From positions 587,434 through 651,433 of the forward strand of contig CAVUKA010000005.1 of the NCBI GenBank assembly GCA_963741945.1: 64,000 nucleotides of DNA, in the 5' to 3' direction. Of the stretch, positions 35,501 through 38,500 are shown piece after piece (the first letter of the stretch is position 1; the number at the start of each line of letters is the position of its first letter). Source of the stretch: an uncultured Gemmatimonadales bacterium (lineage in GTDB: Bacteria; Gemmatimonadota; Gemmatimonadetes; Longimicrobiales; RSA9). The position numbers were made by a program.

Positions 35501-38500
35501 CAGCCGGTCCTGCACGCGCTGCGCGAGCAGGTCCAGCCGCCGCAGGTACGGCGCCACCCTGAGCTGCGGATACTCCTCCGCCGCGATCAGGAGCGCGCCC
35601 ACCGCCAGGTCGATCTGCGACTCCGGCATCGCGACCAGATCGGCGAGCCTCTGTCGGGGGGTCATGGTCATGACGTGAACCTAAGCCGCGTCCCACGGCA
35701 CGGGCAACGCCGGCCACCCGCGGCGCCACCCCACCTTCGGCCAGCCCCCGATCAGGCCGCCCTCTGGTCCGGTCCACCGCTGCTCCCCGGACTCAGGTCG
35801 AGCGCCGCGGCCCGCTTGCAGTCGTGGCAGTACAGGACCACCGTGTAATCGCCGTCGGGCTCGGCCGCACGCACGACACCATCCTGGATGCCGTCCACAT
35901 CGAGGTACGCGATCACCTCCATGGTCCCGGGCCCGCACGTGGGACAGGGGACATCGGATGGGTCGTGCAGGTAATTCAACGCCAGGGACAGCCCCTCTGC
36001 GTTTGTGTATTCGGGCATATTCTGGTCCGTCATCGTCGTCTCCTTCCTGGGCTGTACAGAGGGGCAACATCCGTTCCCTCGCCCGGGGCGCCAACAGGCC
36101 ACCGCGGGCGCCCCATCCGATCACGCGGAGAACGCGGAGAACCGCAACGACGTTTCACGCGAAGACGCGGAGAACGCGGAGGGCATCGAGCGCGGGGAGA
36201 CTGTGGCGGCCGGGCACCCTCCCGGGCGAGGCTTCCCCGGGAACGGCATTCACGCGAAGACGCGGAGAACGCGGAGGGCATCGAGCGCGGGGAGACTGTG
36301 GCGGCCGGGCACCCTCCCGGGCGAGGCTTCCCCGGGAACGGCATTCACGCGAAGACGCGGAGAACGCGGAGGGCATCGAGCGCGGGGAGACTGTGGCGGC
36401 CGGGCACCCTCCCGGGCGAGGCTTCCCCGGGAACGGCATTCACGCGAAGACGCGGAGAACGCGGAGGGCATCGAGCGCGGGGAGACTGTGGCGGCCGGGC
36501 ACCCTCCCGGGCGAGGCTTCCCCGGGAACGGCATTCACGCGAAGACGCGGAGAACGCGGAGGGCATCGAGCGCGGGGAGACTGTGGCGGCCGGGCACCCT
36601 CCCGGGCGAGGCTTCCCCGGGAACGGCATTCACGCGAAGACGCGGAGAACGCGGAGGGCATCGAGCGCGGGGAGACTGTGGCGGCCGGGCACCCTCCCGG
36701 GCGAGGCTTCCCCGGGAACGGCATTCACGCGAAGACGCGGAGAACGCGGAGGGCATCGAGCGCGGGGAGACTGTGGCGGCCGGGCACCCTCCCGGGCGAG
36801 GCTTCCCCGGGAACGGCATTCACGCGAAGACGCGGAGAACGCGGAGGGCATCGAGCGCGGGGAGACTGTGGCGGCCGGGCACCCTCCCGGGCGAGGCTTC
36901 GAAAATGGGGATCACGGGCACCATCGATGCCGCTGGAAGCCGAGCCGTTGCCTGCCCCGACAGACCCTCCGCGTTCTTCGCGTCTCCGCGTGAAACGTTG
37001 TTGCGGTTCTCCGCGTTCTTCGCGTCTCCGCGTGAAACGTTGTTGCGGTTCTCCGCGTTCTTCGCGTCTCCGCGTGAAACGTTGTTGCGGTTCTCCGCGT
37101 TCTTCGCGTCTCCGCGTGAAACGTTGTTGCGGTTCTCCGCGTGCTTCGTGTGGGCCGGGCGGGCGGCGGGGGGCACCCCTTTCGACCGGGCCCCGGCTGT
37201 CCTACCATGCCCCCCATGTCCAGCCACGAGATCGTCCGACTCACGGCCCTGAGCCACGGCGCCGGCTGAGCGTGCAAGCTCGGCTCGGCCGAGCTGGCGC
37301 ACGTGCTGCGTCGATTCGTCCCGGCGGATGACCCGGCGGTGCTGGTGGATGCCAGCACTGCCGACGACGCCGCTGTCTACCGTCTCGATGGGGACCGCGC
37401 CCTCGTCGTCACGGCGGACTTCTTCACGCCCATCGTGGACGACCCCTTCGACTTCGGGCGGATCGCCGCGGCCAACGCGCTGTCGGACATCTACGCCATG
37501 GGTGCCCGCCCGCTCCTGGCGCTCAACCTGGTGGCCTTCCCCCGGGACCTGCTCGACCACGGCATCCTGGAGCGGATCCTGGAAGGCGGCGGCGAGGTGG
37601 TGCGGGCGGCGGGCGCCGTGGTGCTGGGCGGCCATTCCATCGACGACCCCGAGCCGAAGTACGGGCTGTGCGTGGTGGGCGAGGTCCGGCCGGACCAGGT
37701 GGTGCGGAACTCCACCGCTCGCGCCGGTGACGCGCTCGTGCTGACGAAAGCGCTCGGCACCGGGATCATCGGGACGGCGGTGAAGGCGGGGCAGGCGTCG
37801 CCGGGCGTGCTGGAGGCCGCCGTCGCAAGCATGACCACGCTCAACCGCGCGGCCGCGGAAGCCATGCGCCGCCACGGCGTCCACGCGTGCACGGACGTGA
37901 CCGGGTTCGGCCTGCTCGGTCACCTGAGGGAGCTCGCGCTGGCCAGCGGACTGGCCGCGCGCGTGGATCCAGCCATGGTGCCGCTGCTCCCTGGCGTGCG
38001 TCCGCTGGTGGAAGCGGGGCATGTCCCGGGCGGGACGACCCGCAACCGGGCCGACGTGGCGGAGTTCATGGACTGGGGCGGTGCCGACGAGGTCACCCGC
38101 ACGCTCCTCACGGATGCGCAGACTTCCGGTGGCCTCCTGATCGCGCTGCCACCCGAAGATGCCCGCGCGCTCGTGGCCGGGCTGCGGTCTCCGGACGATG
38201 AAGCGGGCGCCGCCGGTGAGTCGGCCGCGCCCGCCATCGTCGGGGAGCTGCGCGCGGGGGAGCCGGGCGCCATCACGCTCGGGCCCGCGGACTGATTTCC
38301 GCCCGCTACAGCTCCTCGTCCGCTACTGATCTCCGCTCGCTACAACTGTGCGCCCGCTACAGCGTGGTCGCCCCCTCGTTCTGGAACGCCACGGTGAGCG
38401 TGCCGGGCGTGGGGTCGAACAGCTGCTCGTCGGCGTAGAGAGTCGGGAAGAGCTCGAGCAGGCGGGCGCGCGGGATCTCGGCAATGCCGGTGTGCGTCAG

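What a model noticed while it worked through the whole genome (the two positions that open the first line are those of the whole stretch)
36079..37166. Cross-phylum palindromic repeat with triple-CGCGGAG arms, amplified into tandem arrays
The genome holds 39 intergenic loci of a non-coding palindromic element whose arms are three CGCGGAG heptads (TCACGCGGAG-N-CGCGGAG-NN-CGCGGAG); arms are often amplified into tandem arrays of 34-44-nt or 95-nt units. The element is missing from syntenic sites of the congeneric genome, and the same 23-base arm occurs in genomes of many phyla, in viral contigs and on Gemmatirosa plasmids. It matches no Rfam family and no paper found by string search.
Evidence so far: 148 blocks, 414 heptads, 39 loci; 19 of 19 two-orientation loci have GGAG arms before CTCC arms. 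Other large loci: C3:503676-504561, C5:161512-162146, C3:78721-79400, C1:92598-92873, C3:850827-852065. Empty sites in G001. Two loci share one element at about 98%. 10 of 41 relatives, backwards control 0. 126 stretches before the row limit in genome_contigs, two isolates included; 43 in viral contigs; 10 places on 2 plasmids. Rfam none. Papers none relevant. Read unitigs bridge both junctions.
(Added by a program. Inside this text positions count along the whole contig: contig position 587,434 is position 1 of the stretch shown here. "Call 12" and the like, gene names such as g00115 and contig names such as C1 are that model's own, and its searches are not shown. The text may have been shortened before it was handed on; [...] marks where a part breaks off. 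The agent that wrote the report below was given it as the finding of a first reader that could run no searches.)

Follow-up and report, generated by a model that had tools for sequence, protein, structure and literature searches.

The report
Amplified gene-less heptad hairpin element
A 1.1-kb DNA palindrome built from repeated CGCGGAG units sits between two genes; it looks like the gene-less form of a widespread hairpin frame that elsewhere encloses small nuclease-like genes and resembles the intervening sequences of ribosomal RNA genes.

Summary
Window 36079-37166 is a 1.1-kb insertion that the congener G001 lacks. It has TCA(CGCGGAG)3-type arms, a 95-nt unit repeated 7.9 times at 100% identity, and a 42-nt unit repeated 4.3 times on the opposite strand. 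The genome holds about 35 such loci. The exact arm occurs in many phyla, in viral contigs and on two Gemmatirosa plasmids.

The new result is a gene link. GxxExxY (PF13366, PD-(D/E)XK fold) genes and four-helix-bundle "23S rRNA IVS protein" genes (PF05635) are framed by inverted arms of three or more tandem short units. The unit differs from copy to copy. All 9 CGCGGAG-armed GxxExxY genes fall in one protein clade, and this genome has one at C3:851453-851920. The Coxiella 23S rRNA IVS has the same plan: three heptads, a stem and a small ORF, cut by RNase III.

I read the window element as an ORF-less, tandemly expanded member of this cassette class. It shows no target duplication. It meets none of the tests I could run for REP/RAYT, a DDE-type MITE or attC. 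The mobilising enzyme is unproven; the cognate nuclease is my best guess, at about 0.3. Similar inverted heptamer repeats are in print for Xanthomonas and Geobacter, so this is a new variant, now with a gene link.

The parts
36079..37166 (.). Whole inserted element, absent from congener G001
   Evidence: In G001 the flanks abut at C6:518996. Contigs of run X1 bridge 36032-36182 and 37113-37672.
36079..36120 (+). Left outer stretch with degenerate heptad-like words (CGCGGGC). It is part of the insertion.
   Evidence: Sequence and comparison with the G001 empty site.
36121..36153 (+). Outermost left arm (TCACGCGGAG-AACGCGGAG) plus the linker AACCGCAACGACGTT. It is a partial copy of the 42-nt unit.
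   Evidence: Sequence. It is the reverse complement of the 42-nt unit reported.
36154..36900 (+). Array of 7.9 copies of a 95-nt unit. Each unit is a GGAG-type arm (TTCACGCGAAG-ACGCGGAG-AACGCGGAG) plus the left 67 nt of the core.
   Evidence: TRF gives 100% matches. Contig depth is 30 against about 5 in the flanks. A version of the same core with only two unit copies lies at C2:111150-111540.
36901..36966 (.). Right half of the core, single copy, with a more A+T-rich centre (GAAAATGGGGATCAC)
   Evidence: The 10 cores under 200 nt (110-175 nt) of the 15 found in this genome align loosely. The C2 copy is near-identical.
36967..37148 (-). Array of 4.3 copies of a 42-nt unit, made of a CTCC-type arm plus the linker AACGTTGTTGCGGTT
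   Evidence: TRF gives 99% matches.
37149..37166 (.). Right outer stretch of the insertion, with the degenerate arm word CTTCGTG
35752..36033 (-). Left neighbour: a small ORF of 93 aa transcribed away from the element
   Evidence: ORF list. The only Pfam hit is a weak zinc-ribbon match, E 0.0099 and below the cut-off.
37207..38295 (+). Right neighbour: selD (selenophosphate synthetase) with an in-frame TGA at codon 21 (37267-37269), transcribed away from the element
   Evidence: Translation with TGA=U gives ...SHGAGUACKLG.... The name selD rests on my recall of that motif.
49036..49722 (.). Second element of the same family in the window: 4.4 GGAG-arm units of 44 nt, a core of about 300 nt, then CTCC arms. 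It starts 18 nt after the end of the upstream gene.

Best explanation
The element is an ORF-less, tandemly expanded member of a class of hairpin-framed mini-cassettes.

A full cassette is a small ORF set between two inverted arms. Each arm is TCAC followed by three or more tandem 7-11-nt purine-rich units. The ORF is a GxxExxY PD-(D/E)XK-fold protein in the CGCGGAG lineage. Other lineages carry a four-helix-bundle "23S rRNA IVS protein", and one case carries a DUF6527-like ORF. When the ORF is lost, an arm-core-arm palindrome remains and multiplies in intergenic DNA much as a MITE or REPIN does.

How it most likely works:
1. Shown: both strands read 5'-TCA(CGCGGAG)3 ... (CTCCGCG)3TGA-3', so any transcript can fold into a long stem.
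2. Inferred from the Coxiella, Salmonella and Leptospira rRNA IVS: such stems are RNase III substrates. They would cut or insulate the host transcript, and in gene-bearing copies they would hide the Shine-Dalgarno-like GGAG units until opened. Probability about 0.5.
3. Shown: copies appear at new sites without target duplication, are gained and lost between congeners, and move between phyla.
4. Inferred, probability about 0.3: the cognate GxxExxY nuclease recognises or cuts its own heptad arms, and the element is copied by repair, as with RAYT and REPIN. The resident gene is C3:851453-851920.
5. Inferred: the 95-nt and 42-nt arrays arose by slippage or unequal recombination between the arms. 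That they arose very recently follows (100% and 99% matches).

Probability that the element belongs to this cassette class: about 0.8.
For: Gene link:
- PF13366 genes lie next to exact CGCGGAG arms in 7 of the 12 arm-bearing genomes found among 301 phylum genomes. That includes all 5 genomes with 8 or more arms.
- In 2 further genomes the closest homologue has CGCGGAG arms seen by eye.
- Flanks of GxxExxY genes are inverted-complementary above the 95th percentile of permuted partners at 25 of 42 metagenome loci (direct-orientation control 2 of 42) and at 6 of 15 genome loci (control 4 of 15).
- The same test for four-helix-bundle genes gives 12 of 15 (control 2 of 15).
- Units differ from copy to copy: CGCGGAG, CGCAGAG, CACGAAG, GACAGGAT, GGACTGAAGAA, GAGCGTG, GGGACTC.
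- All 9 of 9 CGCGGAG-armed genes fall in one clade of 19 rows (SH-aLRT 98). The label needs 5 changes on the tree against 8.5 in shuffles; 1 of 500 shuffles is as low.

Outside the phylum:
- A Rhizobium-labelled MAG contig has a GxxExxY ORF enclosed tightly by CGCGGAG arms.
- In the genome that holds the Holophaga foetida locus, an arm lies 23 nt upstream of a 57% homologue. One of the two close homologues in the genome holding the Thermoanaerobaculia locus (52% identical) is enclosed by arms.

Protein:
- E46, Y49, E96 and K98 are invariant and D86 is nearly so in 49 sequences.
- The AlphaFold model has pLDDT 90.
- Its best fold matches are all PD-(D/E)XK nucleases, with Z up to 7.8.

Stem:
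- Compact copies fold at -72 and -76 kcal/mol, z -9.3 and -10.9.

Mobility:
- G001 has an empty site at the window locus.
- Of 4 other loci compared with G001, 3 lack the element and 1 has a remnant.
- The C2 copy is 98% identical, while orthologous flanks are about 80% identical.
- Only 12 of 301 phylum genomes carry the exact arm, yet it is present in many phyla.

Precedent:
- The Coxiella IVS has three tandem GACAGAT heptads before the S23p ORF, a 28-bp terminal stem, RNase III cuts inside the stem, and a heptad number that varies between strains (PMC4990558, passages).
Against: - Most copies have no gene nearby. Only 4 of 80 genome-contig loci, and 0 of 38 viral loci, have a GxxExxY or four-helix ORF within 1.5 kb, judged by HMMs I built myself.
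- The richest phylum genome, G292 with 154 arms, has only a broken arm-flanked GxxExxY copy. Its best intact homologue is 45% identical.
- G311 has 77 arms, but its best homologue is 42% identical.
- The same CGCGGAG arms frame or flank unrelated ORFs: a DUF6527-like ORF in L225 and a four-helix gene in L035. So the ORF may be cargo rather than the enzyme.
- Clustering on the protein tree shows co-inheritance, not recognition. Near-copies also make labels cluster.
- No nuclease activity, binding or RNA data exist. No RNA run was listed.
- The window core has no recognisable ORF remnant.
- The spacers pair only modestly, 85 of 183, so a perfect stem is not what is conserved.
Confidence: 0.55

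Rival explanations
1. The palindromes spread and expand through host processes alone: ectopic recombination or gene conversion between arms, replication slippage, and repair at cruciforms. The small ORFs are cargo or co-residents that gain a stem or a Shine-Dalgarno context. No dedicated enzyme exists.
For: - Arm-rich genomes lack an intact close GxxExxY homologue: G292 and G311.
- Different ORF families sit in the same arms.
- There is no target duplication, 0 of 40 at k of 4 or more.
- The arrays are perfect tandem copies.
- The C2 copy starts inside a unit, as a recombination product would.
Against: - Insertions appear at sites with no pre-existing arm in the congener.
- An identical 27-nt arm spread over many phyla, with dozens of copies per genome, is hard to obtain without an active copying step.
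Confidence: 0.22
2. The hairpins are attC-like recombination sites, and the small ORFs are gene cassettes moved by integron integrases.
For: - Integron integrase (TIGR02249) scores over its curated cut-off in 4 of 5 arm-rich genomes. By my comparison of the genome lists, it is in 9 of the 12 arm-bearing genomes, against 125 of 301 in the phylum sample.
- The cargo is cassette-like: small ORFs, and a pair I recall as DUF4160/DUF2442 between CGAAGG arms at C2:6.9-10.6 kb.
- attC sites are recognised by their fold rather than their sequence (recalled).
Against: - The hairpin ends are TCAC...GTGA, not RYYYAAC...GTTRRRY.
- A crude attC pattern and an inverted-repeat scan found nothing of the kind beside intI: the attC pattern in all 4 complete genomes, the inverted-repeat scan in 2 of them.
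- GxxExxY genes lie 250 kb or more from intI in those 4 genomes.
- In G292 the DNA beside intI holds a 1145-aa ORF, not cassettes.
- intI and GxxExxY share the same family-level distribution, so the co-occurrence is confounded.
Confidence: 0.06
3. It is a MITE of a classical DDE insertion sequence whose terminal inverted repeats are the heptad arms.
For: - The arms behave as terminal inverted repeats with a fixed outer end, TCA...TGA.
- The element is multi-copy and patchy in distribution, with empty sites.
Against: - No target duplication: 0 of 40 simple elements at k of 4 or more.
- None is visible at the 5 loci compared with the congener.
- No transposase-sized ORF lies between the arms. 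Of the 62 of 129 arms that have a partner within 1500 nt, 4 have a spacer over 250 nt. Two of those four enclose a GxxExxY ORF and a DUF6527-like ORF. The third has a 134-aa low-complexity open frame. The fourth, L257, has a 366-aa open frame that was not scanned.
Confidence: 0.05
4. The arms are arrays of binding sites for a DNA-binding regulator or nucleoid protein, which was the reading given to the Geobacter sites. The element acts on the two divergent promoters beside it.
For: - The heptads are conserved while the spacers drift: 1394 of 1464 positions against 85 of 183.
- The window copy sits in a divergent promoter region that is about 100 nt long in G001.
- Precedent: PMC2700814 (passages).
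Against: - By crude ORF calls, 14 of 27 larger loci lie within 105 nt of a gene's 3' end and 7 lie between convergent genes.
- The congener does without the element at the same genes.
- Unit sequences differ between copies in one genome.
Confidence: 0.05
5. It is a REP/REPIN population serviced by a RAYT (Y1 transposase).
For: - Inverted doublets form hairpins, without target duplication.
- The genome has one PF01797 match.
Against: - Single arms are three direct heptads and do not fold on their own, z 0.55 and -1.44.
- The only Y1_Tnp match (28.9 bits, C1:755443-755721) has no arms in about 700 nt on one side and 1 kb on the other.
Confidence: 0.02
6. It is an assembly artefact, or G-quadruplex DNA of the kind proposed for the Xanthomonas heptamers.
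For: - Perfect 95-nt copies are hard to assemble from short reads.
- PMC4692102 reads G-rich heptamers as G4-forming sequences (passages).
Against: - Contigs of a public run bridge both junctions and show 4-6-fold depth on the unit.
- The family exists in hundreds of independent assemblies.
- CGCGGAG has only GG runs, and the arms pair with a C-rich partner.
Confidence: 0.02

Closest known systems
[quoted passage not shown]
   Same: It has terminal inverted repeats forming a 28-bp stem, and three tandem heptads (GACAGAT) at the 5' side before a small ORF of the four-helix-bundle family. The heptad number varies between strains, and the element is regarded as selfish (PMC4990558, passages). Four-helix genes in Gemmatimonadota are framed in the same way at 12 of 15 loci.
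   Different: The window element is not in an rRNA gene and has no ORF. Its unit is CGCGGAG and its arms are amplified into arrays. The ORF linked to this unit is mostly a PD-(D/E)XK-fold GxxExxY protein. RNase III processing is untested here.
GGGAATC heptamer repeats of Xanthomonas and GGGGA(C/T)T of Nostoc (Rehm et al. 2015, PMC4692102)
   Same: These are tandem heptamers, mostly intergenic and close to the 3' end of the upstream ORF. In 70-75 cases per genome two sites lie in convergent orientation and can form stem-loops. Their length varies between relatives (passages).
   Different: Those were read as G-quadruplex formers. In the passages I saw, no gene link, cross-phylum identity or TCA-bounded three-heptad arm is described. 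CGCGGAG cannot form a three-tetrad G4.
Tandem hepta/octanucleotide 'global regulator binding sites' of Geobacter metallireducens (PMC2700814)
   Same: These are families of 16-49 sites made of four or five tandem 7-8-nt units, mostly in inverted pairs (passages and legends).
   Different: They were interpreted as regulator sites and some lie inside genes. The supplementary alignments are PDFs that I could not see.
REP/REPIN-RAYT systems (recalled: Nunvar 2010; Bertels and Rainey 2011)
   Same: A single-copy gene is flanked by the same hairpin-forming repeats that are dispersed in tens to hundreds of gene-less copies. There is no target duplication, and each gene lineage has its own repeat sequence.
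   Different: The associated protein has a PD-(D/E)XK fold, not a Y1 (HUH) transposase. The arm is not itself a palindrome. The one Y1 gene here is not flanked by arms.
MITEs and modular repeats such as Correia, BOX and MIRU (recalled)
   Same: They are short, non-coding and intergenic, with inverted ends. BOX and MIRU show variable tandem numbers of an internal module.
   Different: There is no target duplication, no parent IS, and the ends are built from tandem heptads.
Integron attC sites (recalled: Cury et al. 2016)
   Same: They are imperfect palindromes that frame small promoterless ORFs, with variable sequence and a conserved fold. Integron integrases are common in this phylum.
   Different: The hairpins have no R boxes, do not cluster next to intI, and use identical heptads in triplicate.

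Membership tests
REP/REPIN-RAYT | Each REP unit is itself a short imperfect palindrome | tested here: not met
   Single arms, which are three direct heptads, fold no better than shuffles: z 0.55 and -1.44.
REP/REPIN-RAYT | A RAYT (Y1_Tnp, PF01797) gene is flanked by the repeats | tested here: not met
   There is one PF01797 match in G000 (28.9 bits, C1:755443-755721). No arms lie in the stretch read around it, about 700 nt on one side and 1 kb on the other.
REP/REPIN-RAYT | Dispersed inverted doublets form a long hairpin, without target duplication | tested here: met
   Hairpins fold at -72 and -76 kcal/mol. Target duplication of 4 nt or more: 0 of 40.
MITE of a DDE transposon | Target-site duplication flanks the terminal inverted repeats | tested here: not met
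   0 of 40 simple elements have a direct flank repeat of 4 nt or more. For k=2 the count is 1 against 1.6 expected. None is seen at the 5 loci compared with G001.
MITE of a DDE transposon | An autonomous IS has the same ends | tested here: inconclusive
   No transposase-sized ORF was identified between partner arms within 1.5 kb in 118 loci. The one 366-aa open frame, in L257, was not scanned.
23S rRNA IVS | Terminal inverted repeats form a stem that contains tandem heptads | tested here: met
   compared with PMC4990558.
23S rRNA IVS | Inserted in a 23S rRNA helix (9, 25 or 45) | tested here: not met
   The window locus lies between a small ORF and selD. Rfam gives no match in 35500-37600.
23S rRNA IVS | Encloses an ORF of the 23S_rRNA_IVP (PF05635) family | tested here: not met
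   No PF05635 or PF13366 match lies at the window locus; G000 has 1 and 2 matches elsewhere. Related loci do enclose such ORFs.
23S rRNA IVS | Excised from the transcript by RNase III | not testable with these tools
   No RNA run holds the stretch.
Integron attC site | R''/R' boxes RYYYAAC ... GTTRRRY at the ends | tested here: not met
   The element ends are TCAC...GTGA. GTT and AAC occur just outside in 6-7 of 40 cases, in the opposite order to attC.
Integron attC site | Arrays lie next to an integron integrase | tested here: inconclusive
   intI is present. No heptad hairpins lie beside it in the 2 of 4 complete genomes that were scanned for inverted repeats. Three hairpins lie within 6 kb of intI in G292. 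Many intI genes sit at contig ends.
Inverted heptamer simple-sequence repeats (Xanthomonas type) | Tandem heptamers in convergent pairs, intergenic, near the 3' end of genes | tested here: met
   compared with PMC4692102.
Inverted heptamer simple-sequence repeats (Xanthomonas type) | G-runs able to form a G-quadruplex | tested here: not met
   The unit CGCGGAG has only a GG run.
CRISPR array | Identical repeats separated by unique spacers | tested here: not met
   The whole 95-nt unit is repeated at 100% identity, so there are no unique spacers.

The most novel reading that the evidence does not exclude
The classical rRNA intervening sequences, the inverted heptamer repeats of Xanthomonas and Geobacter, and this CGCGGAG family are all one class of mobile element that has not been recognised as such. 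The class is a hairpin frame of tandem heptads. Its master copies encode a small PD-(D/E)XK nuclease (GxxExxY) or an Avd-like four-helix-bundle protein. Each protein lineage recognises its own heptad and copies the frame to new sites without target duplication. This would be a REPIN-RAYT-like partnership run by a different enzyme, and able to cross phyla.
Probability: 0.25. Interest if true: 0.85.

Novelty: new variant of a known kind. Interest (0 to 1): 0.64.

Why it matters
The origin and mobility of rRNA intervening sequences, and the meaning of the over-represented heptamer repeats in bacterial genomes, have stayed open for decades.

This locus, and the gene link found here, turn both into one testable question. 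Do GxxExxY nucleases act on the heptad arms that frame them? The family has 15,046 representatives at 50% identity and no known function.

The test is feasible in culturable hosts that carry the exact arm: Holophaga foetida, Trichlorobacter thiogenes and Gemmatirosa kalamazoonensis.

There are practical consequences too. The elements insert directly after stop codons and into promoter regions, here between selD and its divergent neighbour. They create perfect tandem arrays that break or confuse assemblies. They also offer a marker of recent horizontal exchange between phyla.

Tried and rejected
- Rfam with permissive thresholds on 35500-37600 gave nothing.
- No RNA holder was listed for the stretch, so expression and processing could not be examined. 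Run X2 covers only parts of selD.
- PDB search by sequence with the GxxExxY protein gave no hit at E up to 1.
- Foldseek and VIA-align gave only generic PD-(D/E)XK matches: E 0.008 or weaker, Z 7.8 or lower. No specific nuclease subfamily can be named.
- TRF-based and exact-triple detectors for other heptad hairpins in G000 found only the CGCGGAG family, a CGAAGG family and one CACGAA locus. They miss imperfect arms.
- My own HMMs for the two ORF families found no ORF in the 38 viral loci.
- An exact-stem scan found no stems of 12 bp or more beside the G000 intI genes or at the start of C2. A crude attC pattern (4 complete genomes) and an inverted-repeat scan (2 of them) beside their intI genes also found nothing.
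- Flank complementarity beyond TCA...TGA is not above control on average, so insertion into host hairpins is not supported.
- G:T against A:C mismatches at spacer positions were 27 against 23. This gives no strand signal, and orientation relative to transcription was not scored.
- I considered a sigma-54-like TGGCA motif in the cores by eye and dropped it because the spacing does not fit.
- Literature searches:
  - "GxxExxY": 3 papers, none relevant.
  - "PDDEXK_3": 1 paper, function unknown.
  - "Gemmatimonadetes" with "repetitive extragenic palindromic": 3 papers, none relevant.
  - "S23p": only the Coxiella paper is relevant.
  - Four-helix bundle, IVS and Avd combinations.
  - Heptamer terms.
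  - None links GxxExxY or four-helix genes outside rRNA to heptad arms. The NCBIfam and Pfam family comments, which may say more, are not visible here.
- I did not run complex prediction, because no binding claim depends on it.

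
Full report
**1. What is there**

Window 36079-37166 lies between a small ORF on the minus strand (35752-36033) and selD on the plus strand (from 37207).

From left to right it holds:
- a degenerate outer stretch;
- one arm, TCACGCGGAG-AACGCGGAG, with the linker AACCGCAACGACGTT;
- 7.9 copies of a 95-nt unit (arm plus 67 nt of core) at 100% identity;
- 66 nt of single-copy core;
- 4.3 copies of a 42-nt unit, which is the reverse complement of arm plus linker.

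A second element of the family lies at 49036-49722. It starts 18 nt after the end of the upstream gene.

**2. Is it more than chance, and is it real DNA?**

The bare heptad is not over-represented in the genome: 3026 copies, mid-range among its 105 permutations. Its clustering is. There are 172 doublets, against 4-15 for four control words.

With one mismatch allowed there are 35 loci. They hold 382 exact heptads in 11,985 nt, which is 0.3% of the genome and 12.6% of all heptads. In 17 of 18 two-orientation loci all GGAG arms precede all CTCC arms. The exception is the complex gene-bearing locus.

Contigs of a public DNA run bridge both junctions. The 95-nt unit has depth 30 against about 5 in the flanks. 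So the array is not an assembly invention, although the run may be the source sample and the copy number is not fixed.

**3. Gain, loss and spread**

Of four further loci, three lack the element in G001 and one keeps only a short right-arm remnant.

A copy at C2:111150-111540 shares 98.3% identity over 229 nt with the window copy, while orthologous flanks between the two species are about 80% identical. So the element was copied recently within this genome.

In a sample of 301 genomes of the phylum, only 12 hold the exact 26-nt arm, with counts from 1 to 141. The backwards control gave 0.

Their record titles name Proteobacteria, Acidobacteriota, Verrucomicrobiota, Planctomycetota, Chloroflexota, Armatimonadota, Nitrospirota and others. 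Two isolates and several multi-Mb contigs are among them.

Five of these genomes hold 5, 22, 68, 77 and 88 arms. Viral contigs hold 38 stretches, and two Gemmatirosa kalamazoonensis plasmid records hold 47 places.

**4. Anatomy across copies**

The conserved part is the arm, and the interior varies. Partner arms lie 2 to 385 nt apart. They are found downstream of the GGAG arm in 46 cases against 2 upstream (genomes), and in 15 against 0 (viral).

Compact copies are near-perfect hairpins: -72 and -76 kcal/mol, z -9.3 and -10.9. A single arm does not fold.

Across 61 arm pairs the TCA and heptad positions are complementary at 1394 of 1464 positions. The three spacer letters pair in only 85 of 183 cases, against 61.3 +/- 5.7 expected. 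So the heptads, rather than a perfect stem, are what is kept.

Forty simple elements show no target duplication of 4 nt or more. On average their stems do not extend beyond TCA...TGA.

In this genome the cores are longer than in the compact copies. The 10 cores under 200 nt (110-175 nt) of the 15 found align only loosely.

By crude GC3-based ORF calls, 14 of 27 larger loci lie within 105 nt of a gene's 3' end, and 7 lie between convergent genes. The window locus is one of the few that lie between divergent genes.

**5. The gene link**

G000 has two PF13366 (PDDEXK_3; NCBIfam GxxExxY) genes.

- One, C3:851453-851920, sits inside a CGCGGAG-arm locus.
- The other, C2:6984-7331, is framed by arms of a different unit, CGAAGG.

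I then looked at the flanks of such genes elsewhere. They are framed by TCAC plus three or more tandem short units and the inverse on the other side, or by a complete hairpin on each side. The unit changes from copy to copy.

Genes of the four-helix-bundle "23S rRNA IVS protein" family (PF05635) are framed in the same way by yet other units.

I scored upstream against reverse-complemented downstream flanks and compared them with permuted partners:

| Gene set | Loci above the 95th percentile | Direct-orientation control |
|---|---|---|
| GxxExxY, metagenome loci | 25 of 42 | 2 of 42 |
| GxxExxY, genome loci | 6 of 15 | 4 of 15 |
| Four-helix-bundle genes | 12 of 15 | 2 of 15 |

Several of the GxxExxY genome loci have a hairpin on each side, which also scores in the direct control.

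Exact CGCGGAG arms adjoin a PF13366 gene in 7 of the 12 arm-bearing phylum genomes, including all five with 8 or more arms.

On a tree of 49 GxxExxY sequences, all 9 genes with 3 or more exact heptads in their flanks fall in one clade of 19 rows (SH-aLRT 98). The other members of that clade have neighbouring units (CGCAGAG, CGCGAAG, CACGAAG). The label needs 5 changes against 8.5 in shuffles, and 1 of 500 shuffles is as low.

These 49 are a subset. From the 49 metagenome loci, 20 phylum loci and 15 earlier loci I dropped truncated, near-duplicate or stop-containing rows, for example L210.

The link holds outside the phylum:
- A Rhizobium-labelled MAG contig has the ORF enclosed tightly by CGCGGAG arms.
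- The genome holding the Holophaga foetida locus has an arm 23 nt upstream of a 57% homologue.
- By eye, all 8 of 8 GxxExxY genes inspected in five non-Gemmatimonadota genomes have TCAC-type arms, though at one (L298) the arm types lie in reversed order and may belong to neighbouring elements; 2 of the 8 have CGCGGAG arms.

**6. The protein**

In 49 sequences E46, Y49, E96 and K98 are invariant, and G41, G43 and D86 are nearly so. This is the E...D...ExK pattern of PD-(D/E)XK nucleases; the motif name is from Pfam and my recall.

The AlphaFold model is confident, with pLDDT 90.1. Its fold matches are all nucleases of that superfamily: Cas4 SSO0001, the BpuSI nuclease domain, CinB and Hjc. They are weak, with Foldseek E 0.008 or worse and Z 7.8 or lower, so no subfamily can be named.

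The family is very large: 15,046 representatives at E of 0.001 or better. Its function is listed as unknown in the PD-(D/E)XK survey (PMC3424549, one passage).

**7. What counts against the nuclease as the mobiliser**

- Most copies are far from any such gene. Only 4 of 80 genome loci and 0 of 38 viral loci have one within 1.5 kb.
- G292 has 154 arms but only a broken arm-flanked copy, and no intact homologue above 45% identity.
- G311 has 77 arms and a best homologue of 42% identity.
- The same arms also frame a DUF6527-like ORF in a viral contig (E 1.3e-4, just under the Pfam cut-off) and flank a four-helix gene.
- Co-clustering on the tree shows that gene and arms travel together, not that one recognises the other.

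**8. Comparison with what is known**

The Coxiella 23S rRNA IVS has a 28-bp terminal stem and three tandem GACAGAT heptads before the S23p (four-helix family) ORF. The heptad number varies between strains, and RNase III cuts inside the stem. Its authors repeat the old idea that the IVS was a mobile element whose ORF served mobility (PMC4990558, passages).

Xanthomonas has hundreds of GGGAATC heptamer tracts. They are 89-93% intergenic and lie about 28 nt from the upstream ORF. In 70-75 cases per genome they form convergent pairs, and they were read as G-quadruplex formers (PMC4692102, passages).

Geobacter metallireducens has families of four or five tandem hepta- or octanucleotides, mostly in pairs. 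These were read as regulator sites (PMC2700814, passages and legends; the PDF supplements were not seen).

So the architecture is known in pieces. I did not find in print the CGCGGAG family, its cross-phylum identity, or the framing of GxxExxY and non-rRNA four-helix genes.

Membership results:
- REP/RAYT fails on two defining features.
- DDE-MITE fails on target duplication.
- attC fails on its boxes. Integron integrases are common in the phylum, at 125 of 301 genomes, but nothing attC-like or heptad-like lies beside intI in the complete genomes checked: the attC pattern in 4, the inverted-repeat scan in 2 of them.

The tallies include genomes flagged as unpublished (G077 and G171; G014, G194 and G171). 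No single claim rests on them.

**9. Verdict**

The window element is an ORF-less, recently amplified member of a hairpin-framed cassette class. The class also includes GxxExxY cassettes and, by architecture, rRNA intervening sequences.

- Shown: the anatomy, the orientation rule, gain and loss, recent copying, cross-phylum spread, the absence of target duplication, and the statistical gene link.
- Inferred: RNase III processing of the stem, a Shine-Dalgarno role for the GGAG units in gene-bearing copies, slippage as the source of the arrays, and the cognate nuclease as the copying enzyme (about 0.3).

It is a new variant of a known kind with an unrecognised gene link. It is interesting mainly because it makes the old IVS and heptamer-repeat questions testable.

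Noticed in passing
window 37207-38295 (TGA at 37267-37269): selD reads through an in-frame TGA at codon 21 (…SHGAGUACKLG…), so the organism probably uses selenocysteine. The element sits about 40 nt upstream of its start codon, in what is a divergent promoter region of about 100 nt in G001.
   Followed up: partly
G000 C2:6892-10554 (L289): A cassette-like stretch framed by a second unit, CGAAGG or CACGAAGG. It runs: arm, GxxExxY gene, arms, a pair of small ORFs that I recall as DUF4160/DUF2442-like, arm, then further genes and an arm at 10520-10552.
   Followed up: partly
L225:1186-1527 (viral contig IMGVR_UViG_3300018033_000030): A 91-aa DUF6527-like ORF (E 1.3e-4, below the Pfam cut-off) is enclosed tightly by CGCGGAG arms, with the last GGAG 8 nt before its ATG. 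A CAGTGA(A/G) heptad array lies just upstream.
   Followed up: partly
G000 C6:4022-4972 and C1:1401601-1402308; phylum sample: Integron integrases (TIGR02249 over its cut-off) are in 125 of 301 genomes of the phylum. Many sit 150-300 nt from a contig end, as if cassette arrays break the assemblies. G000 has two copies near contig ends, each next to the same 222-aa gene.
   Followed up: partly
G000 C1:638976-639287 (L034): The single four-helix-bundle (PF05635) gene of this genome is followed by about four tandem copies of a roughly 30-nt unit (CGTGTCCGTGTCCCGTGCTCCGGCCGTTT). The inverse words lie upstream.
   Followed up: no
G000 C6:10906-11010 and C1:1410511-1410674: Long perfect tandem arrays of 9-nt units (CCCGTGGAG x 11 or more; GGGCGTCGC/GGGCGTCGT x 18). 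The first lies inside a predicted ORF. I did not examine how they relate to the heptad arms.
   Followed up: no
L268 (G158:C76:1100-2500) and L070 (Gemmataceae chromosome): Tandem cassettes. In L268 two successive GxxExxY genes are each preceded by TCA(CGCGGAG)3. In L070 two successive four-helix genes are each framed by CAGTTTT/CAGTGTT heptads.
   Followed up: no
window 34816-34858: A 12-nt unit, GGCCGGGTCACT, is repeated 3.6 times (96% matches) where two long ORFs overlap on opposite strands.
   Followed up: no
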